A stretch of DNA of 51,236 nucleotides from Thraustochytrium aureum (lineage: Eukaryota). Under the pieces are notes generated by a model. The model searched no databases and was not told where the DNA came from. It was given only the letters and a program-made list of their open reading frames with translations. This document shows positions 15,601-39,600 of the stretch, piece after piece. The translations under genes and the position numbers were made by a program. Location of the stretch: the NCBI GenBank assembly GCA_012862495.1, contig BLSG01000398.1, positions 1 to 51,236 on the forward strand. The letters are read 5' to 3'. Position 1 is the first letter of the stretch. Every line of letters begins with the position of its first letter.

Positions 15601-18600
15601 GCAACGGCGATTACGGCGACGGCGGAGACATCATGCTCACGGCAGGGACCACGCTCGACACCGGTCGAGTAGGCGGTGCAGTTGAGATCCGAGGAGGCCA
15701 GGGTGCAAGCCCCCATTCCGGTGACGGCGGCGACGGCGGCCAGGTTCGCCTTTTTGGCGGTGAAGCCCGCGGAACAAGCTCTGGCGACGTGGGCGGGGAC
15801 GTCATTGTCGAAGGTGGGCGGGCTTTCGCTGGCACTGGGGGTAGCATGCGTTTCACGTCTGGCGCGGGCACGGCGACGAGTTCCGGGCGCGTCTTGATTG
15901 AAACCAGTAATGCGGGTCGAAACGGTGTGTCAGGCTCCTTGACCCTCTCCACCGGCACAGCGAGCCAAGGGAGCTCTGGCTTTGTCAACGTGGAAACAGG
16001 GCGCGCGCTTGGCGGGAGCGGTGGCTTTATCAACGTTGTCGTCGGCGAAGGCAACTACGGCGACGGAGGCCACATCAACGTTGCGGCTGGCAAGACCACC
16101 GACAGCTCTGGTGCTTCGGGTGGGTACATCGCCGTAACGACTGGCTACTCTGCGCAAACGTCCTCCGGGTCGTTTGCGCTCCGGACGCCCAACGCAGGTC
16201 TCATCGGCGTTTCCGGGGGGATTTCGCTTTCGACCGGAACGAGCAGTGCCGGCGCGTCCGGCCACGTCGGTATCGGAACGGGCTACTCCAATGGCGGCCC
16301 AGGCGGCGATGTTCGTGTCTACGTAGGTACTGGACATTCCGGCGACGGTGGCAATGTTACGATTACGGCGGGCGAGGCAACCGCAAGGGCCGCCACTGGT
16401 GGCAACGTTGTAATTGCTGCAGGCGAGGGCTCCAGTCAAGAAATCGGCAACGGGGGCAACGGCGGCAAAGTCCAGGTATTTGGTGGCGCCGCTCAAGGCC
16501 GAAGCAAAGACGACTTTGGCGGCAACGTCGAGCTACAAGGCGGCTACGCACACACCGGTACCGGTGGCAGCGTGGTGCTCCACTCTGGCTTCAGCCTCTC
16601 ATCGAGCAGTGGAAGTCTCGTGCTTCGCACAGCCAACGCGGGTACTGCTGGACTTTCAGGCGCGATCACACTGTCGACGGGCGAATCCACCGCAGAGTCC
16701 TCCGGAGCAATCAACGTTGGATCAGGCACCGCACGGGGTGGTCGCGGAGGGGACATTTCTGTCACCGTCGGCACGGGCAACCTGGGGCGGGGCGGTAACA
16801 TCACGCTCACTGCAGGCACGACAACTGCAACTCGCTCGGGCTCTACCGGTGGCACAGTCTCGATCACGACAGGCTTCTCCAAGGAGACGAGCAGTGGAAA
16901 CTTTGTGGTTAGGACACCGAATTCCGGGTCCTCTGGCGTCTCCGGGTCTATGGTTTTCTCGACAGGCACTGCCTTCAGTGGCAACTCGGGCCGCTTTCAT
17001 GTTGCCACCGGAACCGCGCAAAAAGGTAGTGGGGGCGAGATTGACATGGCAGTTGGACGGGGCTTCGTTGGCGACGGTGGATTCGTCCGCCTCACCGCAG
17101 GCGAAGCCACGGCTGCTGCCGCTACTGGCGGCTTCGTGCGGATTACGGCAGGACGAGGCTCAAACACCGACTCCACCAACGGTGGCGATGGTGGGCATGT
17201 TGAGATTTTCGGCGGCGAAGCACGTGGCAGAAACGCCCAGGATTTGGGCGGCGATGTCGCGCTCACCGGCGGCGAAGCCAATAGAGGATCCGGGGGCTCT
17301 ATCGTGCTGAAAAGCGGTGTCTCTGAAATCGCCTCGAGTGGGTTGGTGAGCATTACGACCGCAGACTCTGGCCCCAATGGCGTTTCCGGCAGCGTGTCGC
17401 TCAGGACTGGGGAGTCGCTGGACGGTCCCAGCGGCATTCTGCAGCTCTCTACGGGGATCGCAAATGGCGGCAACGGCGGCAGCATTCGCGCCGAGGTGGG
17501 CAGTGGCAATGTCGGCGATGGCGGCGACGTGATCGTCACCGCTGGTATCACCAGCGCCGCCGCAAGGAAAGGCGGGAGTGTCTACATATCCGCAGGGAAC
17601 GGGACAGCCAAGACCACCACAGGACCGCTGGGCGGAGGAGACGGCGGGGACATTCACATGACCAGTGGTCATGCGGAGGGCCGTGTCAGCGTCGATCGAG
17701 GCGGCAACTTCACGATCAATGCAGGCTCGAGCCAGGCGGGCACGGGCGGGTCTGTTTGGATCTATTCGGGGCGCTCATTTCTCGCAAGCAGTGGCGAAGT
17801 CCGGATCGGCTCTGCAAACGCTGGCGACGACGGTGTTTCGGGTCCAATGACGCTTCACACTGGCGTCTCAACAAAAGGGTCCTCCGGAGCCATCATGCTC
17901 GCCACTGGCACCGCCGTGGGAGGCTCGGCTGGGAACATCACCATAAATGTCGGCACGGGCAACGCGGGCAGTGGTGGCAACCTGACGCTTTCAGCTGGGG
18001 GGACAACTGGGGTCGCATCTGGTGGCGCCTTGAGCCTCACCTCGGGCTTCTCCAGCACAACTTCTTCGGGAAATATTGCGATTCTCACCGCGAATGCCGG
18101 GGCTCGCGGCGTCAGCGGATCGATTAGCCTTTCAACGGGGACCGCGTCTAACGGGAACTCCGGTATCCTACAGATTAGCACTGGTCGCGCCAACGACGGC
18201 ATGGGCGGGAGCGTGCTGATTCATGTTGGAACTGGCGAGGGCGAGTTGACCAAGGTGGGAGGGAACGTTACCCTCCGCGCCGGGAACACGACGGCGGACG
18301 GCACAACCGGAGGCGGCGTCTACATCCTGGCTGGCGATGGTATGTCGCAGAGCCAGAGCGGCGGCGGCCGGGGTGGCGAGGTAGTTCTGCGCGCGGGGCA
18401 TGCCGACGGCAAGAATTCCGTAGACAACGGCGGCAACATGTTTCTTAGCGGAGGATCCTCTGTAGCAGGCGTTGGTGGAAACGTGACGATTCTCACAGGG
18501 CGCTCCTCCGGATCGAGCTCAGGCAAGCTGCAGCTCGCTAGCGCGGACGCTGGCACGCAGGGTGCCAGCGGGAGTGTCTCCATCACCAGCGGATCCGCAG

Positions 18601-21600
18601 AGCGACACAACTCTGGCACGATAGAGATTTCCACCGGTCCGGCGAATGGTGGTGCTGGCGGTCCTGTTCTCGTTGCTGTCGGTCAGGGGACCTCCGGTAC
18701 TGGTGGGGAAATTTTCCTGAAGGCAGGCTCGACGTCATCGGCAACACACGACGGCGGCGCGATCCGCTTGCTCTCTGGGGCAGCGTCGTCTAAGCAGCAA
18801 ACGTCTGGAGCGCTCGAGCTCCAGACTGCCCCAGGCGTCGGCGGGAGTGGTTCAGTCCTGATTGCAACTGGGAATTCCGATTCATTGCGTTCGGGTGTTA
18901 TCCGCTTGAACACTGGCAACGCAACCACCTCCCGTGCTGGTGACATCGAATTATCTGTTGGGAGTTCTGGAGTTGGCGCTGGCGGCTCCGTTGCGCTTTC
19001 AGCTGGCCTAGCGGCCGGGTTGCCGGCGACCGGGGGTAGCGTTTCGATTGTTTCTGGTCCCTCAACTCGTGCCACCTCAGGAAGCATTCTCGTGGCGACT
19101 CCGTCTGCAGGTCACGAGGGCGGTTCTGGCTCGATCAATATTACGACTGGCCGTGCAACCAAGGACCAGTCGGGGAACATTACCTTGTCAACAGGAGACT
19201 CGTCGAGCGGACACGGCGGCGATATCGTTCTTGAAGTGGGCGGAGCCACCAGGTCCACGGGCGGATTCGTAGGGATCCGCGCGGGAAACACGAGTGCCGA
19301 CAAAACAACCGGGCTCGTCCCTTCTGGGGGGAGAGTCGAGATTGTGGCTGGCTCTGCGACGCACCAGGGAGCCGGGATTGGAGGCGACGTCGTTGTCTCC
19401 GCAGGCGTTTCGCTAGGAAGGGATGCAACGAATCGTGGCGGCTCGCTTGTGTTTGCTGCTGGCTCGGCTGTCGGGGGCGTCGGCGGAAACGTCTCCGTCG
19501 CAACTGGTTCAAGCACCGAATCGAACAGCGGCACCCTGCGGCTGGACACGGGGCTCTCTGGATCGAAAGGTGCGTCTGGTTCGATTTTTCTCCAAACTGG
19601 TGTTTCTCTTGGCCAGACGTCCGGACAGGTCGTCCTCCGGACAGGACGCTCTGCGAAGGGCGCTGGCGGCGATGTCGTGATCGCCGTCGGGAATGGAACT
19701 AGCGGGGCTGGTGGCTCGGTTAGCATATCCGCAGGCAACACGGAACAGAGTGGGCCAAGCGCGACCGGTGGTTGGGTTTCGATTCAGTCTGGCGCCTCCG
19801 CAGCCACGTCTAGTGGATCAGTGTCTGTTGGATCTGCCAACGCTGGCGTGGAGGGCGTGAGCGGCTTCTTAGTCCTCTCAACCGGCGCTACCTTGGATGG
19901 GTCCAGTGGGCCAATTAACATGACGAGCGGTTTCGCAATGGGAGGCTCTGGGGGTTCGATTCGGATTGCTGTTGGTGGGGCAACTGCGCCTCTGCAGCGA
20001 GGAACTGCCGGTGGGAATGTCACTATCCTTGCAGGCGACACTGCTGCGAACGATGCTTTCGGGGGCGACATCACGCTACAGGCAGGATCCGGCTCCAGCA
20101 CAGATGATAAGCTCGGCGGGCAAGGCGGAAACGTGGTCTTGCGCGGTGGCGCAACGGCCTCAAAGACAAGTGGTGCGACGGGCGGCCGCCTGGTTTTCGA
20201 AGGAGGGTTGGCCTCAAGCGGAGAAGGAGGCTCGGTCAGTATCAAGTCGGGTCGGGGTTCCGCGACGACGAGCGGCTCCCTGAATCTTTCCACCGCTGAT
20301 GCAGGTACGGCTGGCGCCACAGGTAACGTGTCGATGACCTCCGGCGACTCTACTAAGGGTGCATCCGGGAACGTATACATTGCTACCGGTGCCGCGAAAG
20401 GCGGGGCAAGCGGGACGATCTCAATCCTCGGCGGGAGGAGCGATACACATATTGGTGGCGATCTGATCCTTTCCGCCGGCTCGAGTTCCACGAAAAATGG
20501 CGGGGGGTTGTTGTTGAGACTGGCTCATCGACTTCGGCTTCAAGCGGCTCACTTTTTCTGCGGACGTCTCCTGCGGGAGTCCAGGGCGACTCTGGATCTG
20601 TTAGCGTCTCCACTGGCTCGACCACAAAGGGGAGCTCGGGGGACATCCTTCTCGCAACTGGAGGGAGCAAGGGGGCGCCAGCGGGGTCAGTGCGCATCGA
20701 AGTCGGCACTAGCTCTGGTGGATCGAGAGCTTCGAACCTTGACCTCCGTGGAGGGAACATTACCGACGCTGATGTACGTGGTGGGAACGTTACCATCATG
20801 TCTGGCATGAGCGGGCGAACCTCAAGTGGCTTCGTCCATATTCTTTCTGCGGACGCCGGCGTCAAGGGAACGAGTGGCGATGTCGTTGTCGGCACCGGTG
20901 TTGCCACAGTCGGCTCCTCGGGCCGCCTTGAGCTTTTCACTGGAAGTAGCAAGAGCGGTCCTGCTGGCCCCATTCGCATCGCAGTTGGGGTAAGCAACAG
21001 CGGCGATGGAGGCGACGTTTCCATCTCGGCAGGGAGTGTTGTTTCAGGCTCCTTCTCTGGAGGGGCCGTCCGCGTTTCGAGCGGGGGCAGTGAGCTTGGT
21101 TCCTCCGGCCCGGTGCTTGTAGAGACCCCTGCGTCTCCGAAGGGGCGCAGTGGAGACATCCATGTGAAAACGGGCACCACCGATAGCGCAGACGCACCTT
21201 CTGGCGATCTGACTTTAGAGACAGGGTCAGCGACGCTCGGCTCCTCGGGAGCGATCGAGATACGGGCAGGCGTTGCTGTCAAGAAAGGTGGCAGTATTCT
21301 TGTCGCTGCTGGAGATTCTACCACACAGGACGGGGGCGACGTGGTCGTGCAGTCTGGCTCGGCTGCAGCCGCTCAAGGCTCGTCCGGGTCGGTCTTCGTA
21401 CGTTCGAGCGCTTCTGCAATGGGACCAACCGGGGCCGTAGATCTCGCAACAGGAAACTCGACGTCTAGTAGTTCGGGCCCCATCAACATTTCGACAGGTT
21501 CGGCTCGGAAAGCCGCTGGCGACATCACTCTCAGAGTCGGGAAGAGCCAAGATCTAGCTGGTGGTCAGATCCAGCTTCGCGCTGGGGACTCTGAAATAGC

Positions 21601-24600
21601 CCGAGACGGCGGCGCTGTTATCATTGAAGGCGGCGTTGGCAGCGCGCGCAGCGGTTCAATTTCCCTCGCTTCACTTGCCTCCCCGAAAGGCGGTACTGCC
21701 TCCGGAAACGTGAGTCTCGCAACCGGCTCAAGCGAGGACGGCGCGGTCTCTGGGAACCTTTTCATGTCCACTGGCGACGTCGACGGGTCAGGCACGTCCG
21801 GAAGCCTGTTTGTTGCTCTTGGCAAGTCTGCGAGCGGCTCTGGCGGCGCGGTCTCTATCCGCGCCGGTGGGAGCAGCTCCGAGAGCAGAAACGACGCTGC
21901 AGGGGGCATCACAATCGAGGCGGGCTCAGGCATGTCCTCTCAGGCTCGTGGCGGTTCAGTGAATATCGCTGGCGGCTCCTCTAGAGGTACTGCCGTTGGC
22001 GGAGGTAATGTCACCGTCTCAGGCGGCTCTGCAACGTCGAGTGGACCAGGCGGTAACATCGTGATTCGCTCTGGCGCCTCCGCTGGAGGTGACACGGGGA
22101 GTGTACAGCTGCTTTCCGCTGACGCAGCGAACGGCGATTCAGGCGATGTTGCGATCAAATCGGGTTCTGCTGCCGGAAGTGGGAAGGTGTCAGGCGATGT
22201 TCGTATCGAGACGGGCGCCGCAGGCGCTGTCGCTGGCAACATCACGATGAGCGTCGGCACAACTCAGGGCAGGAACGGAGGCGAGATTCGCGTCTCAGCT
22301 GGTGCCTCGTCTCATAGCACTGGTGTAGGCGGTGACTTGACTCTGATCAGTGGTGCAGGGACGGCAAGTGGGCGTGTCGATCTAGCAAGCGCTAGCAGCG
22401 GCGACAACGGCGTTTCTGGGCCTGTCACTGTCGGCACTGGTTCGGCGACACTGTCGTCTGGGGCCCTCGATCTTTCAACGGGGAGGTCCACAAGTGGCGA
22501 TGCGGGCCGCATAAGCATCGCTGCTGGTTCTTCCGTAGGCGTTCCCGGCGCTCGCGTTGCCATTTCCGCCGGGAACAGCACGAACATGCGTGGTGGCGAG
22601 CTGACTTTGCGCTCGGGGTTCTCTGCAGCCGGTGAAAGTGGCTTTGTCTCCATTTCTTCTGCAACGGGCACGCAGTCGTCAGGGTCCCTGAGCATGGGAT
22701 CTGGCAGTGCCATCGACGGGAGCAGCGGAATGGTCAACATTTCGACTGGAACGGCTCATGATGGCCGAGCAGGGCGTATCGAGGTAGCGGTGGGGCAGAG
22801 CGCATCTGGGCAAGGCGGCGATATCCTCCTCCAGGCTGGTCAATCCAGAACGGCGACCGGCGGGTCTGTTCTTGTCTCCTCTGGCTCAACCGCCTCGACT
22901 CACTCGAGCGGATCCGTTGTGATCCGATCTGCTGGAGCCCAGAACGGCGTTTCAGGTGGCGTGGAGCTGCTCACAGGCGACACGAACGCTTTGCAGTCCG
23001 GTACCATTTCGCTTCGTACGGGAACGAGTAAGCTGGCCGCTGGGTCAATCCGCCTAGCCGCAGGCGAAACCAACTCTGGCACTGCAGAAGGCGCAGAAGT
23101 CTCCATTACTGCAGGTGCTGCTTTGGGCACTGGACACGGTGGTCGCGTCGTTGTTACCAGTGGAACGTCACGTAGGGCAAGGTCCGGGGAGGTCAGAATC
23201 GGCTCTGCTGGCTTTGTTGCCACTGAGGCGAGCGGCTCGTCTGGGGAAGTTGTTCTGAGCAGCGGAGCGGCTTCTGGAACGGGGTTCTCTTCCGGGTCGC
23301 TCACGGTCTCTACTGGCGTTTCCGCGAGCGGCCGTGCCGGTGACATTGATATTCGCGTTGGCAACAGCGGCGGTGGCGATGTGGGCGGTTCGTTGAGCCT
23401 TCAAGCAGGAAACAAGACTGCAGGCGACGGCGCGGGCGGCTCGCTCCAACTCGTCTCTGGTGCATCTGCAAGTGGGTCCAGCAGTGGTGAGGTCTCGATT
23501 GTGACGCCCGGTGCTGTGAATGCTCCAAGCGGGACAATTAAGCTTGCGACTGGCTCCACGACGCGGGGTGGCGAAAGTGGCGGGTTGATGCTTGAAACAG
23601 GAAGCGCAGGGCAGGCCGCCTCCGGTGGCATTGAACTCCGCGTCGGCGCGAGTCAAGAGGCTTTCGGTGGCAACGTCGAAGTCTTCGCCGGCAACACCTC
23701 TAAAGGTGGCAGAGGGGGGCACGTGGTTCTAACTGCTGGTAGCGCAACTGATCAGTCAAGCACTGGCGTCGGCGGCTCTCTCTCCCTCATCGGTGGGTCG
23801 ACGACGAGCAAGTCTTCTTCCACCAGCGGTGGAGGGGTTTCCATCGCAGCCGGTTCTGCCGAAAAAGGTAGCGGCGGAAGCATTGCGATTGTTTCCGGTG
23901 CATCAGACGGCTCGTTTTCTGGGCGCATAGACATTCGAACGGCAGCGTCAGGCAAGCGAAGTGGCTCAGCCGCTTTCGGTACCGGTGCAAGTGGTGAGGG
24001 CACCTCAGGCTCCCTATCGCTCAGCACTGGTGACACGATGCAAGGCAAGGCCGGCGACATTTCGCTCGTCGTTGGATCTGGAAACAGCGGAACCGGAGGT
24101 GGCCTCATCTTATCCGCCGGCCGCGCTGACCGAGGTGGCGATGTTAGGATTCGGTCTGGGCTGGGCATCACCAAGGGTTCTGGCTCCGTTCTGGTGTCGA
24201 CTCCGTCACCTGAAGACTTCGAGGCTTCTGGTTCGATTGAACTTTCAACTGGCAATGGTGGCAGCAGTAGTGGTCAATCTGGCAACCTGGTCCTCGCAAC
24301 AGGTCACGCTCCACGTGGCGCGAGCGGGTCTATCACTCTATCGGTTGGCGAATCGACCTACAGAGGCGGGCCGGCGGGATCTGTCTCGATTTTCGCTGGC
24401 ACTTCACACGAGCACAGCGGAGGCGCTGTCACTATCGCGAGTGGGGCAAGCTTGATGGAGAAAGATGACGCCTCCAGCGGAAACGCAACCCTCACAACGG
24501 GTGTGAGTATGAAAAGGTCCGGTTCGCTTCTTTTGGGGACCGGGGCAGCCGAAGGAGCGTCTGGCGAAATCCGCATTGCCAGTGGGGACTCTTCAAGCTC

Positions 24601-27600
24601 TGCCGGAGGCATTGTGATTGCAGTCGGGCGGTCGGCGAGCGGGCGGGCGGGGGACGTGCACGTCAGTGCTGGTCTCACGTCCGGCACTAGTTCCACGGGT
24701 GGGGCTGTCCTCATCTCGAGCGGCAAAAGCACAATGTCGACAAGCGGATCTGTCTCTATTCGCACCGCCGACGGTGGTGCGAACGGAGTCAGCGGATCGC
24801 TTGACCTTTGGACTGGGGATACCACCAAGGGTACTGCTGGGAGCATCCGCATCTTTTCCGGGAAAAGCGCAAGCGATGGTTCAGGTGGCAACATTGCCGT
24901 CTTTGCCGGCGCAGCAAACAATGCGCGAGGCGCTGAGGTATCTATCACCGCAGGTAGTGTCACGGACGGGAGCTGGACTGGTGGGCGCATCCTGATCTCG
25001 TCGGGCAGGTCGGCGACGAGCTCGAGCGGCGAAATAGCCATTCAAACTGCGCAAGTCGGCTCTGGTTCTGGCACTTCAGGTGCGGTCGTGGTGTCAACTG
25101 GTCTTGCTGGCGCTGGGTCTACTGGCGAGATTGCTCTCCTGACTGGTGATTCTAGCAAGGCAGGCACAGCAGGCTCAATCAGGCTCCAAGTTGGCAGCGG
25201 CGGGAGCGTTGGGGCAGGCGGTTCTGTCCAGATCCGAGCTGGATCAGCACTATTCAACGATGGTGGGTCCGTCGTGGTAGAGTCCGGGCCAGGGGCGTCC
25301 GAAAAATCTTCTGGAAGCATTCGCCTCGCCACCCCAGATGCCAGCGCGAATGGTCGGTCTGGAGACATCAGCCTTCGGACAGGCGAAGGAGGCGGTGTGC
25401 TTGGCCCTCAGGGAACGTTTCTATTGCCGTCTCAAGCGCACTTAATGGGCAAGCCGGTTCGATCTCACTTTCCGTTGGAGATGGGCGGCACGCTGGAGGC
25501 GTCAACATTGCAGCAGGCTCGACTGTGGACCAAGGCCATGGCGGCGCTGTTTCGATTCGGGGCGGGGATGCAAGCGCGAAGTCGAAGGACGGCGGAGGCG
25601 GGGCCGTCACGATTCGAGCTGGTGACGACCATGCCAAAGGCAGCGACACTGCAGAGTTGGGCGGCGGAAAGATATCTCTGATTGGCGGTGAGGTTTCCAC
25701 AAGCGGTCGTTCCGGAGGCTCCATTGAACTTCGCTCCGGTGCAAGTGTGAAATCCAGATCAGGATTTGTCACGATTAACACCGCTGATACCCCGCAACAA
25801 TCGGGCGACATCGAGATCGCAACTGGGCAAGGCACCTTCGTTGGAAGTGGCAACCTGAAGTTGAGCACTGGTCAGTCGGCAAGCGGCAGGGCAGGCAACA
25901 TTGAATTGGCAGCAGGTGCGAGCCTGGGGTCCCAACGCGGCGGCAACGTGACGCTTTCAAGCGGCTCGGGGGACATCGTGTCCGGGGGGGTTGTTGCAAT
26001 ATCTTCCGGAACCACGAGCTCCCCCGCCCATTCGTCTGGCGGGGTCTCTGTCGAGTCAGCAGCTAGCCCTGGTCTCAGCGGGGGCGTCACGATTCAGTCA
26101 GGCGGTGCGAAAGCAGGGACAGGGTTGGTGGCTATCCGAAGTGGAAGTGCGTCCCAAGGCGCTGCCGGGGCGCTCTCTCTCCAGGCGGGAGCGTCTGGGA
26201 TCGGGCAAGGCGGCGAGCTCGTGCTGTCAGCTGGCTCTGCAACCGGAACCTCAACAAATAAGGGTATGGGGGGCAACGTCACCGTCGTCTCTGGGTCTTC
26301 CACGGAGGCAGCGACAGGAGCGATTTCCCTGAGCACTCCCCCGTCCGGCAACGCCGCAGGCAGCGGATCGATCTCTCTTTCAACAGGGACCAGTGGGGTC
26401 TCGTTCAGCCCAGATGCCGCAGGAATCAACGGTGGGAGCATCGCCCTCGCCACCGGAATGTCGCAACGAGGGAGCAGTGGCGGCATCGCCATTACCACCG
26501 GAGAAGGGCGCGACCAAGGCGGCTCCATTTCGCTACTTGTTGGCCAAGGAGGCTCGATCGGCGGCGCCATCACGCTCTCTGCTGGGTCAAGCTCGGCGTC
26601 GTCTGGTGGCGGCGTTAACATTGCCGCGGGCCCTGGCTTGGAGCAAGGGGGCACTGTTGTTTTGACTGGCGGGCAGTCTTCGGGATCGCGCGATGGGTCT
26701 GATGGAGGTGGCGTTGTTCTGCGAGGCGGGCACTCGCCCTCGCGCCGCGGAGGCCCCGTTGTGCTCGAGTCTGGGGCAAGCGACGAGGGTGAATCGGGCT
26801 TCGTTAGTATCAAGTCTAGATCAGCGCATGCGAGCTCAGGGTCTCTTGTGCTTGCTACTGGCAACGCGACAGAAGGGACCGCAGGCAGCATTACTTTGGT
26901 ATCGGGTTCAAGCTCCTCAAGCGACCAAAGTGCAGGCGGCATCCGACTCTCTGTTGGCGGCAGCCGGGTCACGGGGGGGGCGGTGGAGATCGTGTCCGGA
27001 CCATCTTCACTATCGACTGGCGGGGTTGTGAAAGTCCTCTCCGGAGCCTCCGAGATGGGCTCGAGCGGTGCGGTGTCGATTGCATCAGGGTACGGCGCTG
27101 AACACTCGGGCGACGTGGAGATTGCAAGTGGTCCTGCGGGCGAGCAAAGCTCTGGCTCGGTCCGCCTCACATCTGGACAGTCTGCTAGCAAGGGTCACGG
27201 AGGGGACATTGTTTTGTCTGTAGGAGCTGGAAGCTCGGGCCGTGGTGGCGCAGTCCGCATCGCTGCTGGTTTGCAGACTTCTGAGTATGGAACCGAAGGT
27301 GGTTCTATTTATATCGCCAGCGGTCATAGCGAACAAGCCTCAAGCGGGTCGATCGAACTCGCCACCGCTCAGGCCGGCCTGGCAGGCGCCTCGGGCTCCA
27401 TCGCCATTGCGACGGGCAGCTCCGCCTCAGGGGCGTCGGGCAATATCACCTTCCAGACCGGTAATGGCACAAACGCCCCCGCTGGTAATGTCGTCCTGGC
27501 CGTCGGCGAAACGGATGGGGGCGTGGGTGGCTCCGTTCTCATTTCTGCTGGTGGGACGTTGGCGAGCGAGGAGTCCACTGCAGGAAACGTAGTTATCACC

Positions 27601-30600
27601 TCTGGCTTCTCGCGCGAGACAACGAGCGGAAACGTTCAGATCGCCTCTGCTCCAGGTGGGACTGAAGGAGCCTCTGGCTCGGTTGAGCTGGGAAGCGGTG
27701 CCGCAATTTCAGGCAGCAGTGGGCGACTTGATTTGACTACAGGTTCAGCAGACTTTGGGGGCACCGGTGCAATCAGGCTGAGCACCGGAGATTCACGGGC
27801 GGGTGGTCGGGCTGGGAGCATCGCAATCGCTGCTGGTGAGACTGCCAGGGGCACTGGTGGTAGTGTCTCGTTGCTTGCGGGGTCAACCGTGGACGAGACA
27901 GCGGCCGGCGGCGCCGTCTCCATTGTATCTGGTGCGACGATGTCGCAGTCTGCTCCGAGCGGGTCACTCTCATTGGCTACTGCTTCATCTCCTGCGTCTG
28001 GATCGATTCGTGTTTCAACGGGGAGTTCCAGTGCTGGAACGAGTGGGGCATTGGAGCTCGCTACCGGGGGCGCACAGGGAGGTAGCGCTGGATCCGTGTT
28101 CCTCTCTGCTGGTCCGACAAACGCCCCACTGTATCCTGGCGGCAATGTTTCCGTTGTCGCTGGCCTGTCCGCTGAGGCAACGGGTGGCTCGGTCTTGATC
28201 CGATCGGGGGTTGGCTCGGCGGCTGCGAGCGGCAGCGTCACGATCTCCACCGCATCTGCGGCGGGCTTGGGCGGGGCGTCTGGCTCGGTGGCAGTCTCTA
28301 CGGGTGACTCTGCTGACGGATCTAGCGGGGCTCTTGTTCTACGGACAGGGTCTGCAAGTTCCTTGACTGGGGCTGCAGGAAACGTGGAAATCCTCCCAGG
28401 TCGAAGCAGTGCCAACAGTGAGGGCGGGTCGTTTATTGTCCGCGCTGGCAGTAACGGGGGCTCCATTCAGCTTTCGACTGGCGCGTCAGAGGTTGCCGGG
28501 TCGAGCGGGAGGTTTGAGGCAAGAACTGGGTTTGCCACTTCGGGCCCCTCCGGGTCTGTGACGCTTGCGAGCGGAGATGCAGCGAGTGGGGCTAGCGGTT
28601 CCGTTTTGGTGCGCTCAGGTGATTCGACTTCCGACCGGTCCGGGGACGTCCTTCTCCGCGTTGGCAGCTCGTTGTCAAGCGAGGGAGGCGACGTTCGCCT
28701 CGAAGCTGGTCTCGGTGCAGCTACTGGCGGTTCTGTAGTCATTTCGAGTGGTGGCGTGCAACAAGCCGGCGTATCTGGGCGACTCGTCATGAGCACAGCC
28801 GCAACGAGCGCGCAGTCTGGTGCGATTCTAATCAGCTCAGGGTCTGCCGCAGCAGGCTCCTCGGGTTCGCTCGCACTCTCCACCGGCTCTAGTCAAGCCT
28901 CCGCCGGAGGCATTCGTCTTGATGTAGGCCCAAGTGCAGGAGCTGGGACCACTGGCGGGTCCATTGAACTCGTGGCGGGACCCTCGGACGAAGGAACAGG
29001 CGGCGCTGTTTCCATTTCTTCCGGTTCAGGGCATTCTCAATCTGGCGCTATACACCTCTCCAGCGGTCTTGCTGCCCAGGGCAGCTCGGGCTCTGTCGAT
29101 ATACGCACAGCAGAGGCATTGAGCGGCTCTTCAGGGAACATTGTTTTGGAAACAGGAGCGGCGGCCGCTGGTGGCTCGATCGTTCTTGCCACGGGGGCCA
29201 CTTCGGTGAACAGCGATGCAGGAAGTGTCAGCGACGGGGCTGTTAGCGTCGGTGCAGGTTCACTTGCACGTAACGACATCACGCTCGCGGTTGGCTCGAC
29301 CGATTCTGAAGTTGGCGGGGGTGTCCGCATCTCCGCTGGTGAGAGCGTGATGCCGGCAATCGGTCGTGGCGGCCGTGTAACCATATCTGGCGGTTCTGGC
29401 TCGCACAGTGGAGGAGATGTCGTTATTTCCCCGGGTGCAACGAGCGGCAGCATCGCGCCCTCCAACGCTACCGTCTCGCTCTCCACTTCTCAGGGCCATG
29501 TTGGCGTTGCAGTGAGAGACAACGGGGAGCTTTTCCTCGCGTCCCAGTTCGGTCAACACATGAGCGTTTCGGCGGGCAACAACCTCAACATCGAAGCGTT
29601 TAACGAAGTCCGCTTCAACGCCGCCGAGAACGGGACTTGGGACACGAAAGTGCGGTTTCAGAATGGAACCTTGTTGTCGCACGTTCCGTTGCACGTTTCT
29701 GGGACCGAGTACTCTTCTGATATCCGAATCAAAGAGAAGATCGTCGACGCCGACCTCAACCTTTTGCTGCATCGTCTGCAAACGATCGAGATCAAGGAGT
29801 ACCAGTACAAAAAGGAATGGCAACGCCTCCGCGAGCACGATGGGTCTCGGGTCCGTGGTGTCATTGCCCAGCAACTGAAAGAAGTGTTCCCCGAGTATGT
29901 CCACATAGAGAGGAAGCTCTCTTACCCCGACAAAGGCCTGGAGTTGGAGAACTTTCACAAGGTGGACAAGGTCTCGCTCATCCTCGACTTGGTTGGCGCT
30001 TTCCAGGAGCACCACAAGCACTTTGAGGTCAAGCGGGCGACGGGGTCTTCGACGCCTTCGGTGGTGGTTCAATCAGCTGCAGCCGCTGGCGAAGGCACCT
30101 CGACTGGGTCTGTTACGATTCGCTCTGGCGGCTTCGAATCAGGGTCAAGCGGGGCTGTTGAGATCGAGACTGGACCCGCTGGGTCTGGATCTGCGGGGAA
30201 CTTGAGCCTTACTGTTGGTTTGGCCACGGGTTCCGCCGCTGCCGGATCCGTTCGCATTCAATCCGGCTCTGCAGAGAATGGTCCGCTTGGGAACATCATT
30301 TTGCAAGCAGGACAACGCCCTGCAGTTGGCGAGGGTGGACATATCGACTTGCTTGCTGGGGAGAACGACGGCAACGTCCTCGTCCGAGCTGGCTCGGCGC
30401 GGGGTAGCGTTACTATTGAGGCCGCCCAGTCTTTTCAGGTCGCTGCCGGCAGCGTCAACGTTGTCTCTACCGTTGGCCGTGAGAACTTTAGCGGACGCAC
30501 CGGCGAGGTGCGCGTTGCCTCAGGAGATGCCCTCGACGCGGACAGCGGAGCGCTGCGCGTCTCGTCAGGTTCGTCGCTTAGCGGCTCCGCGGGTGACGTC

Positions 30601-33600
30601 AGCCTCACGGCTGGGGAGGTCGCATGGCAAGGGCTCCCACGGGGGCTCTGTTAGCGTGCGAGCCGGATTTAGCACCGATGGGCGCGGAGGCAACTTGACC
30701 CTCGCAGCAGGCTCCGGAGTTGTTGATCGAGCCGGAACCGTCGAGATCGCTGCTGGTTCTTCCGTTTCTGCGTTTGGTGGAGATGTGAGCATCAAAGCAG
30801 GGTCCTCTTCAGAACGCGCAAGCGGTTCGGTGGCCATCTCTGCTGGGGCAGGGTTTGGTGGCGGGGTTTCAGTTCGCTCAGCAGATCAAGGCGCGATTGG
30901 CATCGTTTCTGGCGCTGGAGGCGCTGTTCGCGTTGCAACTGCTGATGCAAGCACATCAAGTGGCCCAACTGCGTCATCGGGGCCCGTCTCGATTTCGACC
31001 GGCCGGGCCGACGGTGCGGCCTCATCGGGCGGTCTCGTACTTCGCACTGGGGACGCTGGGAGTGCTGGAGGCATTCGAATTGTTGCAGGCACAAGCAACC
31101 TCGGTTCCAGTGCGGAGCCCGGTGCGTCTTCAATCGAACTTGTTGCACCTGGCTCGGTCTCGATTAAGGACGGAGCAATTACGGTCGGTCAATCAGGCGA
31201 AATCGCTGTAGCGTCGACTGTCGGTGAAGATGTCGTCTTCACCCCAGGGCGTGATATCCGCGTCGATTTCAAGCACGCCGGGTCGGAGTTTGTCGTCGGA
31301 AATGAGAAGAATGCTGTGAATGGCGACGTGACGTTTCGAATCCGCGAGGACGAGGTCATTTCCCACGTCCCTATCCAAGCGACTGCAATCGTCTATCCAT
31401 CCGATCGGCGGATCAAGGAGAACATTGAGCCCGTTGACCGCTCGCGCGTCTACCATCGTCTTCAAGGGATCCAACTTCGCCAGTACCAGTACACCGAGCA
31501 ATGGCGCAGTGTCCGCGGCATGACTGACAACAAGGTCGTCCGAGGAGTTATTGCCCAGGAGCTAGCAGAGACGTTTCCGGAGTACGTCAACATCGTCAAA
31601 AACATGCAGTTCGAAGAGAAGGGCTTCAGCCTGGATGACTTCCATGAGGTGAACAAGCAAGCCATCACGCTCGACCTGGTTTCTGCTCTGCAAACGCAGC
31701 ACTCGCGTTTCACGATTGGGGAGGACTCGCCGTCTCGCAGCGGCCAAGTGGATATTTCCACTGAGGACGCGGGTGCGTATGTCGGAGCCGTGGAAGACGC
31801 TGGGGCGAGCGGCGGCATTGTACTTCGGACCGGACTGGCTGCCCAAGGCTCAAGCGGATCTGTTCGCGTCGAGACCGGGCCAGCGCTTGCCGCAGGTGGG
31901 ATCCACGTCGAGCCTGGAGCCTCTTCTGGGCCAACGCCCGCAGCTGATGTGTCAATCCGCGCTGGCGCTGGCGCTGGCTTTGGAGGCACAGTGAGCGTCT
32001 TCTCAGGCGCTGGGCAGCTACGGTCTGGGCACTTTTCGGCCGGCTCGTCTGACAGTGCAGCTGCAAGCGGGTCAGTTCAGGTAGGCTCCGGAGCAACTGA
32101 AACAGGACCTTCAGGGTCTGTTAGCGTATCCTCTGGTCGCAGCGTTGGCGGTGACGCTGGGGATGTGAGCGTTGAAGCCGGAAGCGCTGGAGGGAAACCC
32201 GGCGACGTGCGCGTTTCCGGGGCGCGTCGCTATCTGACAGTGCTGTCACGGGCGGCGCAGCAGCGCTTGTCTCTGGCGCAAACGCAGCGGGCGGTTCTTC
32301 TGGCGAGGTACTTGTCGCGTCAGCAGCAAGCGCCATATCTGGCCGCGTAGTGTTGAGCAGTGGCCAGGCCGCCACGGGCGAGTCTGGTTCTGTGGCACTA
32401 GTCAGCGGCGATGCCTCTGCTGCATCCGGATCCGTTGTGGTCCGCGCTGGGGTTTCCTCTGCGGGACCAGGCGGCGCTGTTGAGGTCGTCGCGGGCAATG
32501 CGAATGGGCCCGGAGGAGTTGGCGGATCGGCGTCGATCTCCTCAGGCGCGTCTTTGCTTGGTCAAGCAGGGTCCCTTTCCCTTCTCTCCGCCAGTGGCGG
32601 TGGGGGTGGTGACGTTTCTGTGCTCGCTGGCGCTTCTACCACCGCTCCAGCTGGAGGCTCAATTACTGTTGCTGCTGGAGGCGCTGCAGCAGATGGCGCA
32701 TCAGGTGGGGCAGTGAGCATCTCGGCGGGGGCTGGTAGTGCTGGCCACGGCGGGTCGCTCGACCTCTCAGCGGGCTCTGGCCTCTTCGGCAACGGCGGAG
32801 CAGTGCGAATCCGGAGCGGCGATGCAGGTGCAGGCTCGGCGAGCGGTGTCACAATTGCGGCTGGCAACGTTCGCGGAGCTGGTTCGAACAGTGACGAGGC
32901 CTCCGGCGACGGTGCAAGGGCTGGAACGATCCGACTTGTTGCGGGTTCGTCTGAGATTGCAGACGTTTTGGGAGGCGGTATAGACCTCCATGGCGGTTCG
33001 GCTCTTGCCCCAGGCGTTGGCGGCGGCTCTGTTCGGATCCTCAGTGGAGCAGGAACAAGTGGGCCAAGCGGCCACGTATCGATCGCAACCGCAGGCGCCA
33101 CAAGTGACGCCTCGAGTGGATCCGTCGCCCTTGAGACAGGAAGCGCCGAAGACGGCCCCTCCGGAGACATTCACTTGCGCTCAGGCCAAGCGTCTGGAGG
33201 GTCTGTTGGCTCGATTCGGCTCGAAGCTGGAGTCTCAACCGACAGTGCCGTGCCAGGATCGATCGTTCTTAAAGGCGGTTCAGCACTTGGCAAGTCAATG
33301 GCAGGCGGTTCTGTAGATATTCGTTCTGGCGAGGGCGAGTCGCGCGGAGGCGAGGTTCGAATTGTATCCTCGGCCGGCGAAAAGTCTGTTGGCGGGGACG
33401 TCGTCATCGGCGTGCAATCGTCTGCCTCTTCTGGAAATGAAGGGCAGGCTGGTGCGGTGCGCATTTCGGCGGGGTCTGACGCAGGTGTTGCTCGTGGTGG
33501 AAACGTCATGATTGCGGCTGGGAACACGATGGGCAAGGGAGGCGCTGGGGGCGACGTGTCAATCCGAGCTGGCGCGTCGTCGACAGAAGCGCCCGGCGGC

Positions 33601-36600
33601 TCGCTATTGTTGGAGTCTGGCGAGAGCGATGCTGGGGAGGGTGGGGCGCTCTTTCTGTCGACGCCCCTCTCACGTGAATCCGCCTCCGGTCCGCTTTCTA
33701 TTCGAACTGGATCAGCAATAGCTGGTTCTGGACAAGTCGATATCGAAAGCGGCAAGAGCGAGGGCACCAGCGGAGATATTCGGATTAGTTCTGGGGCTTC
33801 GCGTTCTCGCGCTGGCGCTGTTGCCATCTCTGCCGGAGAATCGTTGGGTTCGTTCGGTGGCGATGTCTCTGTTTCCAGTGGAGCAGGTGTCTTGGGGTCT
33901 GGGTCGCTTGGAATTCGGACTGGATCATCTGCTTCTGGGCTTTCTGGGGCGCTCTCCATCGCAACAGGGGACACCGGAAAAGGGGCGTCTGGTAGTGTCC
34001 AAATTGGCACCGGAAACGCGCCCGGATCTGCTGCTGGAAGCGGCTTGGTGACGCTCTCGACCGGTGATTCGGATGCAGGCGACGCTGGCGATCTGTCGCT
34101 TCGGGGCGGTGCGTCGAAGAAATCCACGGGCGGCTCCATCCTGTTGGAGAGCGGCACAGGTCTGCAGGGCGGGCAGGTCCGCCTCACTGCTGCTGGAGGA
34201 GCATCTGGTGGGAATTTCGCGCTGGAAGCAGGAGCGAGCCTTGGCAAGGCAGACTCTGGAGGCAACGGTCCAAAATCCGTGCAGGGAGAGGACAGGTCTC
34301 CCGGGGCGGTAGTATCGCGGTTGAAGCTGGTGCGTCTGGGTCGCACAGTGGCGGTACGCTCGAACTGCGTGGCGGCGTTGCCGAATCTTCCTCGCAAGGT
34401 TCTGGCGGAAGCGTAAATATTGTGTCGGGATCGCACGCTGGTGGCGCCGCGTCTGGCGCGCTTTCACTGCTTTCGGGGGACTCCACCCTGGCAAAGAGCG
34501 GCGACATCGTCGTTGGCACTGGGAAAGGCGCTGGCGGCTCCGGCTCGCTACGGTTGTCAACCGGCAGCGTCGCGCTGCCTGGCGCGACGCCAGGCCCTGT
34601 CTCAATTCGCGCGGGTTCGAGTTCTGGCGCCGGAGCGACTGGTGGCGAGGTTACTCTTGCTGCTGGAGGCGCTGGCGGTAAGGGCTCGGCAGGTGGAAGT
34701 CTCCGGCTCTCGGCGGGTGTGGCTTCTGCGGATGGGGCTGGAGGGTCAACAGAGATAGCTGCTGGCGATGCATCTTCTGGGCGCGGAGGGAGAACGCAGA
34801 TTCGTGCTGGAAGCAGTGCGGAGAGTGTTGGTGGAGACATCGCTCTTTCAGGCGGAATGGGTGCCACGATGGGTGGCACTGTACGTCTCGAAGGCGGCTC
34901 GAGCCGTCGTGGCCCTGGCGGGAACGTTGATATTGTCTCGGGTCAAAGCGAGTTGAAGGCTTCTTTTCTGGAGCGCTGCGGCTGGAAAGTGGTGCAGCTG
35001 ACGGCGGTTCTTCAGGCAATGTTTGGTTGGGTTCTGGCTTGGCTTCTCTTTCCTCAGGCACCGTTTCGCTCTCAAGCGGAGCGGTTCCCAAAGGGCGCGC
35101 AGGCGATATTTTTGTCAGCCCTGGTGCGTCTGGGACGAAGGATGGGGCAAGCACGTACGTCAACGGGGGCGCAAACTCGGTTGGCGTTGGCGGATCCGTT
35201 GTCATTCGCTCTGGTACCGGTCCGCAGGAAGGTGGGTCCGTTGTCGTATCCTCCGGCGCAGCAAGTCAAGGTCGCTCAGGGGAGGCAGTCTTCCTCTCCG
35301 CAGATTCGCTGAGCGGTCGGTCGGGCCCTGTTCGTATTGCCAGTGGCCAGACAAGCGTGGCCGGCTCTTCTGGAAACGTTGTTGTGGAGTCTGGAGCTTC
35401 CGACTTTCAGGCTGGAAGTGTCGAGGTTAAAGCTGGGCAAACTGCGAGTCTCACAGCTCCTGCGGGCCGCGTCACCGTTCGCGGCGGCGGTGGGGGCTCG
35501 TCTGGCGGCGACGTGCACGTTCTCGCAGGAACTTCAACACAGCTCGGTGGAAGCCTCGCCCTTCGAGGCGGCGAAGCGTCCCTGGGCGTAGGCGGGCGCG
35601 TCGAAATTTCCGCTGGCTCCGGGCCCCAGGGGGGTGGATCAATCGCGATGAGCGCTGGGCCTGCGTCAAGCGGTACAGCCGGTCATGTGGAAGTCGTTGG
35701 CGGGGCCGGTAGTGCAGACGCTCTTGCTGGCCGCGTCGAAATCACTGGCGGGTCTTCACAGGATGGCGCGACCGGGGGTAGCGTTATGATTCGCTCGGGC
35801 TCAAGCAAGGCTGGGTCCTCTGGTGTGGTTTCCGTGGGTACCGCGACCGCTGCACGTGGAAGCAGTGGCCACGTTCAGGTATCCACAGGCAATGCGTTAG
35901 CAGCGCCAACAGGCGACGTTTCGATTTCAACCGGGTCAAGTGGGAAGGGCAAAGCAGGTGATATCGTTTTGACGGCAGGCGCTTCGTCGAAAAGCGAGAC
36001 TGGACTCGGTGCCGCGGTGAGGTTAAACGGAGGTCGGTCCACGGACAACGCCCCTGGTGGCGAGGTTGTCCTTCAAGCAGGAGGCAATCTTGCGACTGGC
36101 CTAGGCGGCACAGTTCATGTTCTATCTGGTGCAAGCGAACAAGGCGTAAGTGGCGCTGTTCGACTCGCGAGCTCGCAGGGCGGGATCAGTTCCGGGCCGG
36201 TAGAAATTGGCACGGGATTTTCAACCTTTGGTGCATCCGGCAAAGTCGCGGTTCGCACTGGGGATGCGAAAGCGGGAAGGTCTGGCGAAATCTCGATTCA
36301 AGTCGGCGATGCCGCTGCGGGGACCGCCGGTCGCATCTCGATCGAGGGCGGCCGATCCAACCTCGGTGAGGGCGGCCGCGTCCGAATCGCCACCGGGACG
36401 AGCGCGTCTGGTCCGAGTGGGTCCTTAGAAATNNNNNNNNNNNNNNNNNNNNNNNNNNNNNNNNNNNNNNNNNNNNNNNNNNNNNNNNNNNNNNNNNNNN
36501 NNNNNNNNNNNNNNNNNNNNNNNNNNNNNNNNNNNNNNNNNNNNNNNNNNNNNNNNNNNNNNNNNNNNNNNNNNNNNNNNNNNNNNNNNNNNNNNNNNNN

Positions 36601-39600
36601 NNNNNNNNNNNNNNNNNNNNNNNNNNNNNNNNNNNNNNNNNNNNNNNNNNNNNNNNNNNNNNNNNNNNNNNNNNNNNNNNNNNNNNNNNNNNNNNNNNNN
36701 NNNNNNNNNNNNNNNNNNNNNNNNNNNNNNNNNNNNNNNNNNNNNNNNNNNNNNNNNNNNNNNNNNNNNNNNNNNNNNNNNNNNNNNNNNNNNNNNNNNN
36801 NNNNNNNNNNNNNNNNNNNNNNNNNNNNNNNNNNNNNNNNNNNNNNNNNNNNNNNNNNNNNNNNNNNNNNNNNNNNNNNNNNNNNNNNNNNNNNNNNNNN
36901 NNNNNNNNNNNNNNNNNNNNNNNNNNNNNNNNNNNNNNNNNNNNNNNNNNNNNNNNNNNNNNTGGAGACCTTGTGCTCCAAGCTGGTCTTGGTCTCGCTA
37001 GTGACTCCGGCTCTGCGTCTCTTGGTACGCCAGAGTCGTCAGCTGGTCGCTCCGGGGCGCTTCGACTCTCGACAGGGATGAGCGCCTCGCAATCCTCGGG
37101 TGACATCAGTGTCAGCACGGGATCCACGCAAAAAGGCCCTGCAGTTTCTGGGGCTGTCCACATCACGACCGGGGCGTCTCTCGACGGTCCAACGGCCGCG
37201 GCTGGAAATATCAAGCTGCAGGCAGGGGCGGCAAATCCAGCCGCTCAAGTCCAACGCAACCAGGCAGGCGCGCTTACCCTTCAGTCTTCCGTTATTCTGA
37301 CGCCCGGGGCTTCTTCCGGCGCTGGGGTTGCACTAACTGATAGCCTTGGCGCAACGCGAGTGTTCGTCTCCAACACGGGCGGCGTGCACGCGACCACTGC
37401 AGAGGGGGAGAGCTTTCGTGTCACAACGGCGAAGGGAGGAAACATCGTGATGGATCACGTGAACGATCCAAGTGCAGAAACAACGATGTCATTCGACGGC
37501 CAGACTGTGTTCCGTGCACGGTCGGACCGCGTGGTGGCCCACTCGCCAATTCAGGCCTCTGCGATTCACTTTCCGGACGACGAAAGGATCAAAACGAACA
37601 TCGAAGCTTTCGACAGGAGCAACGTGTATCAACGCCTCCAAGATCTCGAACTGCGATCGTTCGAGTATTCCGACGAGTGGAAGGCTGTCCGAAAGACCGC
37701 CGCAACAACTGCTTCGCGCAAGATGCGCGGCCTGGTCGCTCAGCAGGTGGCGAAGACCTTCCCGGAGTACGTCCATATCCTCGACGAGGTCTCATTCGCT
37801 GACAAAGGTTTCAAGATGGACAAGTTTCACGAGATTGACCAGCAACAGCTTACTTTGGACCTGGTGTCGGCCCTGCAAACGCAGCACAGCCGTTTTAAAA
37901 TCGGTCCGAACAGTCAAGACGTCAGCGCAACTCTCCAGATCTCCACTGCGGACGGGGGTGATCACCCGAGCGCGCCGAAAGCGAACGAGGGCTCGTCAGG
38001 GGCCATTTCGATCGCCACTGGCAAGTCAACGCTCGGCCCTTCCGGTGCCCTCACCCTCATGACTGGAAATGCAACCGGCGGCGATGCCGGGACTGTCGCT
38101 GTCTACGCTGGAAGCAGCGATAGCGGCGTGGCGGGCTCGATCGACATTCGCGCCGGTGCAACTGGTGCCCTAGGAGAAGGCGGCCGTATCATGCTACAGA
38201 GTGGAGTTAGTCGTGTGGGTCGAAGCGGCCCAATGGCTTTCCGCTCTGGCCCAGGCGTCGCCGGAAGCGGGGACCTGGCCATCGCGAGTGGGGATACGAC
38301 CGGAGGGGTTTCTGGGAACGCAACCTTCGCAAGTGGCGACTCCGTTTCAGGAATGGCCGGCCAAGTAACTGTTGCTGCGGGCTCGTCGAGCTCGATTGGG
38401 GCGGAGGGCCTCGGTGGTCGCGTTGTGATCCGCGCGGGCGCGGCGCGGGTCGGTAGCGGTGGCTCCATTTTCGTGATGTCTGGTGCTTCCCCTTTCGCCT
38501 CTGGTAGTGTTGTGATGAGTAGCGCACCGTCTTCATCCTCCGGAAATGTCAGCATTGCCTCAGGCACGGGCGAGTCTATGTCAGGAGCGATCCAGATAGC
38601 CAGCGGAGCGTCAAAGTCGTCGACAGGTGCGGTAAGCATTGGGTCGGGAGAGTCGCTGCAAGGGGTTGCTGGAGACGTTCGTGTTCGCGCCGGCTCGTCC
38701 TCAAGCGGGCCGCGTGGTGGCTCTGTTATCGTTGATGGCGGCTCTGCGCAGAGTGGGATCGCAGGGTCTGTGAACATTTCTTCTGGTTCAAGCGAGGCAG
38801 GCGCAGCTGGCTCCGTCGCCATTACTGCTGGGAGCGCCGGGGCGAAGGCCGGCAACGGAGCCCAAGTCGTAGTAGCAGGCGGCCTGGCAAGTGCTGCTGG
38901 TGCAGTCGGTGGGCCAGCGCACTTCGTCGGCGGGCTGTCCAGGGCTGGCCATGGCGGGGCAGTAGTGGTATCTGGTGGCGATGGGCTTGGTGGTGTGGGG
39001 GGTGGCGCTATCGTGCGCTCCGGAGACTCGCAGCTTGGCGCGAGCCAGCCCGTTGTTATTCAAGCAGGTGTATCGCGTGCTCTCGGCACCGACGGTCTTA
39101 CTTCAGCTGGCCAAGTCAAGATCGCAGGCGGTACAGCGATTCCTAAAGGTATGGCTGGCGGATCCGTCGTTGTAGACGGGGGGAGTGCGCAAGGTGGGCC
39201 TGGCGGAGCAGTTTCAATCACTTCAGGAGCAGGCACAGACCAGAGCGGCTCAATAAGAGTGGGAAGTGCGTCGGGCGTTCGGTCTGGCAACGTCGAATTG
39301 GGCACTGGCGCAGCAACGGCAGGAGTCTCAGGGAATCTTACGCTTCGCACTGGGTCTGGCCCAAGTGCCGGCCAGATCGAGGTGCACGTTGGATCGTCCA
39401 AAATCGAAGGCGGGGGGTCTCTGTCGCTCTCTGCTGGGCGAGCCTTAGGCACTGGCCCGAAAGCGTATGGTGGGCGCCTTCGCCTCGCCGCAGGTGATGC
39501 ACCTGCTGGAGCCGGCGGTAACATCACCCTTACCTCTGGTTCCGGCACCACTGCAGGGGACGTTATTATTTCTGCCGGGTCTGCAACCAAGCCAACTTCG

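What the first reader, a model, noticed from the sequence alone, without database searches (positions are those of the whole stretch)
29716..31711. Two active-looking ICA domains predict exact cleavage sites and a discrete ~561-aa middle product
Seen: S-D-x-R-I-K motifs at 29716 and 31400, each followed directly by more beta repeats instead of ending the protein or running into a long coiled coil. Established: MYRF is cleaved just before the catalytic Ser. Inference: three products, namely ~5,700 aa (PSI-tipped), ~561 aa (ICA1 plus ~450 aa of repeats and neck) and >6,600 aa starting at ICA2. Each released chaperone would stay as the N-terminal cap of the next segment.
Basis: partly seen in the sequence, partly recalled or inferred. 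Interest (0 to 1): 0.85.

Follow-up and report, generated by a model that had tools for sequence, protein, structure and literature searches.

The report
Giant fibre with serial self-cutting domains
A single-celled eukaryote encodes a likely secreted repeat protein of over 12,800 residues with three internal copies of the self-cutting domain known from phage tails and MYRF: two keep their catalytic residues and are predicted to cut the fibre into three pieces, while the third has lost its catalytic serine and likely only helps folding.

Summary
Observation confirmed. S-D-x-R-I-K motifs at 29716 and 31400 open MYRF-type ICA/S74 domains (Pfam 38 and 44 bits, cut-off 22; ICA2 model matches PDB 7dc3 at 2.2 Å), each followed by more repeats. 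The 30618 frameshift is most likely an assembly error: the one public contig covering it lacks the extra base, and all six breaks tested are corrected likewise. Predicted pieces: 5,703, 561 and >6,612 aa.

Three additions. (1) A third ICA at 37576 has Asp for Ser, confirmed in two runs. (2) In relatives the domain is internal and keeps Ser at 49 of 52 sites; the three losses are all downstream copies in multi-copy genes. (3) The second half of the coiled coil that MYRF needs for cleavage is missing here and in relatives, so cutting is inferred, not shown.

The 561-aa size is not conserved (365–1,914 aa in relatives). The 15-residue repeat differs from the TLP-12 glycofibril 12-mer. This scan noted the family before on another genome (e1-9897740). 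Ten paper searches found no description of serial internal ICAs. Verdict: new variant of a known kind, interest 0.6.

The parts
12607..12684 (+). Start Met and signal-peptide-like hydrophobic stretch
   Evidence: Sequence; most hydrophobic 19-mer of the whole gene, and no other stretch scores above 1.61. No signal-peptide predictor was available.
12685..13100 (+). Cys-rich, PSI-like head
   Evidence: PF01437 E 6e-04, below the curated cut-off; matches the heads in L001 (E 2.5e-16) and L005 (E 1e-04)
13200..29400 (+). Repeat segment 1: Gly/Ser-rich units of about 15 residues, G-x-hydrophobic-x-hydrophobic-x-x-G
   Evidence: 302 motifs here; 640 in the gene against 67 +/- 8 in shuffles, modal spacing 15
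29404..29715 (+). Neck/stalk before ICA1
   Evidence: Aligns with the necks before ICA2, ICA3 and those of relatives
29716..30027 (+). ICA1 (S74); Ser 29716, Lys 29731; predicted cut just before 29716
30040..31200 (+). Repeat segment 2 (20 motifs counted), body of the predicted 561-aa middle product
30615..30618 (+). One extra base beside a G run; most likely an assembly error
   Evidence: Left out in the 1 public contig that covers it (tables 4 and 8)
31205..31399 (+). Neck/stalk before ICA2
   Evidence: its last part aligns with the MYRF stalk
31400..31717 (+). ICA2 (S74); Ser 31400, Lys 31415; short helix 31655-31708, then a beta strand; predicted cut just before 31400
31720..37270 (+). Repeat segment 3, with further one-base breaks (32219, 34268+34272, 34963) and an N gap (36433-36962)
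37576..37899 (+). ICA3 (S74) with Asp in place of the catalytic Ser; Lys 37591 kept; predicted non-cutting
   Evidence: contigs of X1 (37100-38324) and X2 (37368-37925) agree with the window at this codon; sister to ICA2 in the tree, support 99/90
37910..51236 (+). Repeat segment 4, open at the window end; the C-terminus is not in the window

Best explanation
This stretch is the middle of one giant eukaryotic gene for a likely secreted, likely trimeric beta-rich fibre, and its two Ser-Lys ICA domains are predicted to trimerise and cut the chain just before the serines at 29716 and 31400, giving pieces of about 5,700, 561 and more than 6,600 residues. Shown: one reading frame once single-base assembly errors are set aside, a 15-residue repeat, three internal MYRF-type ICA domains, an intact dyad in two and Asp for Ser in the third, and the same internal layout in many relatives. 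Inferred from phage tailspikes and MYRF: each ICA sets three chains in register and helps the repeats upstream of it fold as a triple beta-helix, then the active ones cut themselves free of that upstream segment and stay as the N-terminal cap of the next. Inferred here: because the ICA's coiled coil is only half the MYRF length, the fibre directly downstream would supply the missing trimer stability, so folding and cutting would pass as a relay from the far end towards the N-terminus; ICA3 would be a folding node that does not cut. The pieces probably part after cutting, since the MYRF-type ICA has few contacts with the stalk above it.
For: Domain identity: Pfam S74 above cut-off in all three; best PDB sequence hit MYRF 7dc3, E 8e-11 single and 7e-16 profile; AlphaFold2 model of ICA2 (mean pLDDT 77.8, about 90-96 over most of the domain) matches 7dc3 at rmsd 2.2 Å, then endoNF 3gw6, 3gud and T5 4uw8. 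Active site: positions equivalent to MYRF S587, R590, K592, Y615, Y617, Q639, E647, F666, V669 are kept in ICA1 and ICA2; in a 38-row alignment Ser is in 37, Lys 38, Arg 38, the two Tyr 36 and 37. Selection for the nucleophile: Ser at 49 of 52 non-redundant sites in this family; the 3 exceptions (window ICA3, second and third ICA of P0004) all lie downstream of an intact copy, and ICA2/ICA3 and the two P0004 copies are sister pairs (99/90 and 100/98). Layout: 39 of 52 sites are followed by repeats, 12 records or exons end within 60 aa, 1 has other sequence; four separate gene lineages carry two or three ICAs (window, P0004, P0120, the L007-L014 group). Intact gene: all 6 breaks in 17000-36400 are offset by the right indel in public contigs, with no other indel or joint listed; no indel in 36964-45955; 46 of 80 listed variants are synonymous against 28% expected, none a stop (p 4e-08). 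Precedent for an ICA-linked eukaryotic triple-beta fibre: TLP-12 (10.1101/2025.09.30.679562).
Against: No cleavage was observed; nothing here tests activity. MYRF needs a four-heptad coiled coil for cleavage: L685, L692, I696, L699 and R695 mutants block it (PMC8326128; L683A still oligomerises but is not processed, PMC3742443). The window's ICAs have no hydrophobic residue at these positions, and 0 of 46 scorable family sites have all three of the L692/I696/L699 equivalents (33 have none, 12 one, 1 two). Three ICAs persist without Ser, so the domain can be kept with no cutting. Spacing between ICAs is not conserved. The 30618 correction rests on one contig of depth 3.77. The trimer and the beta-helix fold of the repeats are not modelled; the repeats match no solved structure by sequence and lack the TLP-12 motif. 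Searches seeded by shared words may favour Ser-bearing relatives. The C-terminus, and whether it is anchored, is unknown.
Confidence: 0.62

Rival explanations
1. The internal ICAs are only folding and registration nodes along one continuous fibre; with the zipper shortened they cut rarely or not at all, and Ser is kept for structural reasons.
For: Loss of the zipper positions that MYRF needs; three Ser-less copies are retained with the rest of the domain conserved.
Against: Ser at 49 of 52 sites while its neighbours vary freely (position -1 is Ser or Pro, +2 varies); Ser-to-Ala MYRF folds and crystallises, so Ser is not needed for the fold (PMC8326128); losses occur only in downstream copies behind an intact one.
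Confidence: 0.2
2. Both ICAs cut, but the pieces stay bound end to end, so the fibre is nicked rather than divided; the nicks lock the fold or act as break points for shedding.
For: The endoNF chaperone grips the upstream beta-helix before cleavage (PMC8326128); a short middle piece of unconserved size is easier to explain as a by-product of duplication than as a free product.
Against: The closest structure is the MYRF type, which has almost no contact with its upstream stalk and releases it; endoNF also releases its chaperone.
Confidence: 0.14
3. The gene is a decaying pseudogene, or is cut short at 30654 by a real frameshift, so ICA2 is never made in one chain with ICA1.
For: The window shows ten places of frame switch along the gene; four of them (near 13680, 14875, 47050, 47610) were not checked against other runs; the 30618 check is a single shallow contig.
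Against: All 6 places tested are corrected in other runs, most lie in or beside base runs, and variants are biased to synonymous with no stops.
Confidence: 0.04

Closest known systems
MYRF / Dictyostelium MrfA ICA domain (PDB 7dc3; PMC8326128, PMC3742443, PMC3828593)
   Same: Closest sequence and fold; internal position; Ser-Lys dyad and surrounding residues; the ICA stays at the start of the C-terminal piece.
   Different: MYRF has one ICA, in the cytosol, between a DNA-binding domain and a membrane anchor, with a four-heptad coiled coil. Here there are three, in a likely secreted repeat fibre, with about half the helix and fibre repeats on both sides.
C-terminal intramolecular chaperone of phage tailspikes and fibres (endoNF 3gw6, 3gud, T5 L-shaped fibre 4uw8; PF13884)
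   Same: Same Pfam family and fold; sits just after a beta-rich stalk that it is known to fold as a triple beta-helix.
   Different: The phage domain is single, terminal and discarded. Here it is internal, repeated and followed by thousands of residues; three of the five viral loci fetched have the terminal form with a long helix and none the internal-repeat layout.
TLP-12 glycofibril and its Amoebophrya candidates such as A0A8J1ZHD7 (10.1101/2025.09.30.679562)
   Same: Giant (about 20,000 aa) protist protein of Gly/Ser repeats with an ICA; a solved trimeric beta fibre coated with glycans.
   Different: TLP-12 has a 12-residue GSxxS repeat and, per the text, a C-terminal ICA. This gene has a 15-residue repeat, the G-[ST]-x-x-[ST] motif is under-represented (120 vs 157 +/- 12 in shuffles), and its ICAs are internal.

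Membership tests
ICA / Peptidase S74 (PF13884) | Profile match above the curated cut-off | tested here: met
   38.3, 44.2 and 32.8 bits against 22
ICA / Peptidase S74 (PF13884) | Ser-x4-Lys dyad at the domain start | tested here: met
   Met for ICA1 and ICA2; ICA3 has Asp for Ser
ICA / Peptidase S74 (PF13884) | ICA fold | tested here: met
   Model of ICA2, Foldseek to 7dc3 E 1.6e-08, rmsd 2.2 Å; ICA1 and ICA3 by alignment only
ICA / Peptidase S74 (PF13884) | Long C-terminal trimeric coiled coil (four heptads in MYRF, needed for cleavage) | tested here: not met
   18-residue helix then a beta strand; zipper positions lost here and across the family
ICA / Peptidase S74 (PF13884) | Trimerisation | not tested
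ICA / Peptidase S74 (PF13884) | Autocatalytic cleavage before the Ser | not testable with these tools
   Needs protein expression or proteomics
Phage tailspike/fibre with C-terminal chaperone | Single chaperone at the C-terminus, discarded after cleavage | tested here: not met
   Three internal copies, each followed by repeats
MYRF/MrfA transcription factors | Ndt80-type DNA-binding domain upstream and membrane helix downstream of the ICA | tested here: not met
   No such Pfam hit in any stretch of the gene; no membrane-helix-like stretch after the signal
TLP-12 glycofibril proteins | 12-residue GSxxSx7 repeat | tested here: not met
   Period 15; motif not enriched
TLP-12 glycofibril proteins | Triple beta-helix stem with O-linked glycans | not testable with these tools
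   Ser+Thr are 24% of residues, which is compatible but no test
TLP-12 glycofibril proteins | ICA at the C-terminus | tested here: inconclusive
   The gene's C-terminus lies beyond the window and no genome is held; no terminal ICA with a long helix was seen among relatives

The most novel reading that the evidence does not exclude
A widespread protist family builds sub-micrometre surface fibres as self-processing polyproteins: serial ICA nodes fold a >12,800-residue trimer in a relay, active nodes cut it into fibres whose lengths are set by gene layout, and a single Ser change turns a cutter into a permanent joint, so lineages tune the number and length of fibres by duplicating nodes and switching them off. 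The products could be an unidentified protist filament such as fine flagellar-hair or cell-coat fibrils (a guess; not tested).
Probability: 0.35. Interest if true: 0.82.

Novelty: new variant of a known kind. Interest (0 to 1): 0.6.

Why it matters
The ICA domain is known as a single device: discarded from the end of phage fibres, or releasing MYRF from the membrane. Serial internal copies, some live and some dead, would show how a cell folds a trimeric beta fibre of thousands of residues in register and sets its length without a separate protease or ruler. It predicts exact cut sites, gives a natural live/dead pair (ICA2 and ICA3, 56% identical) for a simple test, and offers sequence candidates for glycofibrils now being solved by cryo-EM from water samples. 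It would also show that an ICA can work with half of the coiled coil that MYRF needs.

Full report
What is in the window. The neighbours are eukaryotic genes (DHHC palmitoyltransferase, cNMP/GRAM protein, SCAMP). From a Met at 12607 with a signal-peptide-like start, one + strand gene runs past the window end at 51236, more than 12,800 codons, in stretches separated by ten places of frame switch and three N gaps. After a Cys-rich head (weak PSI hit below cut-off; shared with L001 and L005) it is 22% Gly, 17% Ser, 13% Ala, built from a unit of about 15 residues: G-x-hydrophobic-x-hydrophobic-x-x-G occurs 640 times against 67 +/- 8 in 50 shuffles, modal spacing 15. No membrane-helix-like stretch follows the signal. 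The organism was not placed further.

The observation. S-D-I-R-I-K at 29716 and S-D-R-R-I-K at 31400 are there and open Pfam S74 hits well above cut-off. ICA2 matches the MYRF ICA structure 7dc3 by sequence (E 8e-11; profile 7e-16) and by fold: an AlphaFold2 model built on a 38-row alignment (mean pLDDT 77.8) gives 7dc3 first (E 1.6e-08, rmsd 2.2 Å), then phage chaperones 3gw6, 3gud, 4uw8 and many phage fibres in BFVD. A third S74 domain, not in the finding, starts at 37576 with D-D-E-R-I-K, about 2,060 codons after ICA2 across an N gap.

Are the breaks real? Four public runs were laid on 17000-36400. Seven indels were listed, at six places (20501, 25404, 30618, 32219, 34268 with 34272, 34963); these are exactly the six frame switches of that stretch, each with the sign that restores the frame, and no other indel or joint was listed. 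At 30618 only one contig covers the place (X4, depth 3.77) and it lacks the extra base. On 36964-45955 no indel was listed, and contigs of X1 and X2 agree with the Asp codon of ICA3. X1 may be the window's own source, so it is not counted as independent. Of the 80 best-supported substitutions shown (80 of 279 listed in the two calls), 46 are synonymous against 28% expected and none makes a stop. Four breaks outside these stretches were not checked. The gene is most likely intact.

Do the domains look active? From PMC8326128 (parts 2 and 3 of 6 read: results and discussion): S587 and K592 are essential, Y615 and Y617 together are essential, cleavage is before S587, the ICA stays with the C-terminal piece, and it has almost no contact with the stalk above it. 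ICA1 and ICA2 keep all these positions; ICA3 has lost the Ser and has Phe for the first Tyr. In MrfA the equivalent motif is SDLRIK and both mutants block cleavage, but the peptide recovered began at the Asp (PMC3828593, passages). Against: MYRF cleavage needs the four-heptad coiled coil (L685, L692, I696, L699, R695), and L683A in the human numbering oligomerises but is not processed (PMC3742443, passages). Here the helix is 18 residues and passes into a beta strand; these positions are not hydrophobic in any of the three domains.

Relatives. Protein searches (8,000 candidates scored each, lengths up to 2,000 aa) gave 38 proteins with this kind of ICA before the scores drop to MYRF and phage levels; a metagenome scan with a pattern that does not include the Ser gave 26 loci. 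After removing copies over 90% alike, 52 of 106 sites remain: Ser in 49, Asp in 2, Ala in 1 (P0037, P0038 and the exon L026:855 lack a readable site and are not counted). 39 of 52 are followed by repeats, 12 end within 60 residues at a record or exon end, 1 has other sequence; none of 46 scorable sites has the full MYRF zipper. So both the internal position and the short helix are family traits, and Ser is kept despite the short helix. Multi-ICA genes occur in four lineages: the window (Ser, Ser, Asp), P0004 (Ser, Ala, Asp; 389 and 365 aa apart), P0120/L026 (Ser, Ser; 804) and the L007-L014 group (Ser, Ser; 1,913-1,914). In a 61-row tree ICA2 and ICA3 are sisters (99/90), the two Ser-less P0004 copies are sisters (100/98), the two pairs fall apart, and ICA1 lies outside the ICA2/ICA3 group: duplications within genes, with Ser lost at least twice, always behind an intact copy. 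Named members are few: Achlya hypogyna (P0002), an EukProt entry labelled Alexandrium tamarense (P0103), and a 3-kb contig labelled archaeon (P0027; probably misassigned, my inference); the nearest Atlas cluster is 83% eukaryote, commonest Oomycota with phylum known for 6 members. Several loci show exon-like breaks. Viral and prokaryotic scans gave nothing with this layout.

How it most likely works. Shown: layout, repeats, fold of ICA2, state of the dyads, family pattern. Inferred from phage and MYRF work: the precursor enters the secretory route, three chains align, each ICA helps the repeats upstream fold into a triple beta-helix, and ICA1 and ICA2 cut before their Ser, staying as caps on the next piece. 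Inferred here: the downstream fibre stands in for the missing half of the coiled coil, so the process would run from the far end towards the head; ICA3 is a folding joint that does not cut. Using TLP-12's 14 nm per 216 residues as a rough scale (a different repeat), the pieces would be about 370, 30 and over 430 nm. I put this at 0.62; nodes that do not cut at 0.2; nicked but still joined at 0.14; broken gene at 0.04. The middle piece is best seen as a consequence of where a second live node sits in this gene, not as a conserved product.

What is known. The domain and its chemistry are known (MYRF, MrfA, phage tailspikes). A giant ICA-bearing protist fibre is in print: TLP-12, a glycan-coated trimer of 12-residue repeats whose Amoebophrya candidates have a C-terminal ICA (10.1101/2025.09.30.679562; passages and section 7 read; its supplementary Fig. 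S5 was not seen and could show internal ICAs). This gene fails the TLP-12 repeat test. Ten searches of the paper library (listings only, plus term look-ups in PMC12221091, PMC12220804 and 10.64898/2026.09.11.750887) found no description of serial internal ICAs in a eukaryotic fibre; subscription papers are not covered. This scan noted the same family on another genome, with one internal domain (e1-9897740), a terminal-ICA eukaryotic spike (e1-7449022) and tandem S74 domains in a bacterium (e1-861877); these are unchecked notes and not counted as support.

Verdict. Observation confirmed; interpretation partly supported. New variant of a known kind: an ICA with a shortened helix used serially inside a giant eukaryotic fibre, in live and dead copies. 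Interest 0.6: the layout is unusual and gives exact, cheap tests, but cleavage is unproven, the biological structure is unknown, and the family has been seen before in this scan.

Noticed in passing
window 37576-37899 (+): Third ICA with Asp for the catalytic Ser; P0004 has a copy with the same change in a separate branch of the tree.
   Followed up: yes
window 4141-7029 (-): SCAMP domain in one ORF with a PDZ-like stretch (below cut-off) and a region that looks like a cNMP-binding domain; an unusual fusion if real.
   Followed up: partly
window 2187-4397 (-): Protein with a cNMP-binding domain and a weak GRAM hit, next to the SCAMP gene, which seems to hold similar domains.
   Followed up: partly
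window 213-1502 (+): DHHC palmitoyltransferase, apparently in one exon.
   Followed up: partly
window 9204-10193 (-): ORF with no Pfam hit that looks by eye like a beta-propeller glycoside hydrolase (recalled resemblance, untested).
   Followed up: no
window 13680, 14875, 47050, 47610: Four more frame switches in the giant gene, not checked against other runs; the first two sit in short base runs.
   Followed up: no
L005:5152-10370 and L001:2745-9850: Same Cys-rich head and internal ICA, but the head-to-ICA distance is under 5 kb and about 7 kb of DNA against 17 kb in the window, so the first segment's length varies widely.
   Followed up: partly
L026:730-960: The second ICA of this gene is split just after its catalytic motif by what looks like a short intron.
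   Followed up: partly
P0027 (RYG63291.1): Family member labelled 'tail fiber domain-containing protein [archaeon]' on a 3-kb contig; it groups with the metagenomic members and is probably a misassigned eukaryotic contig.
   Followed up: partly
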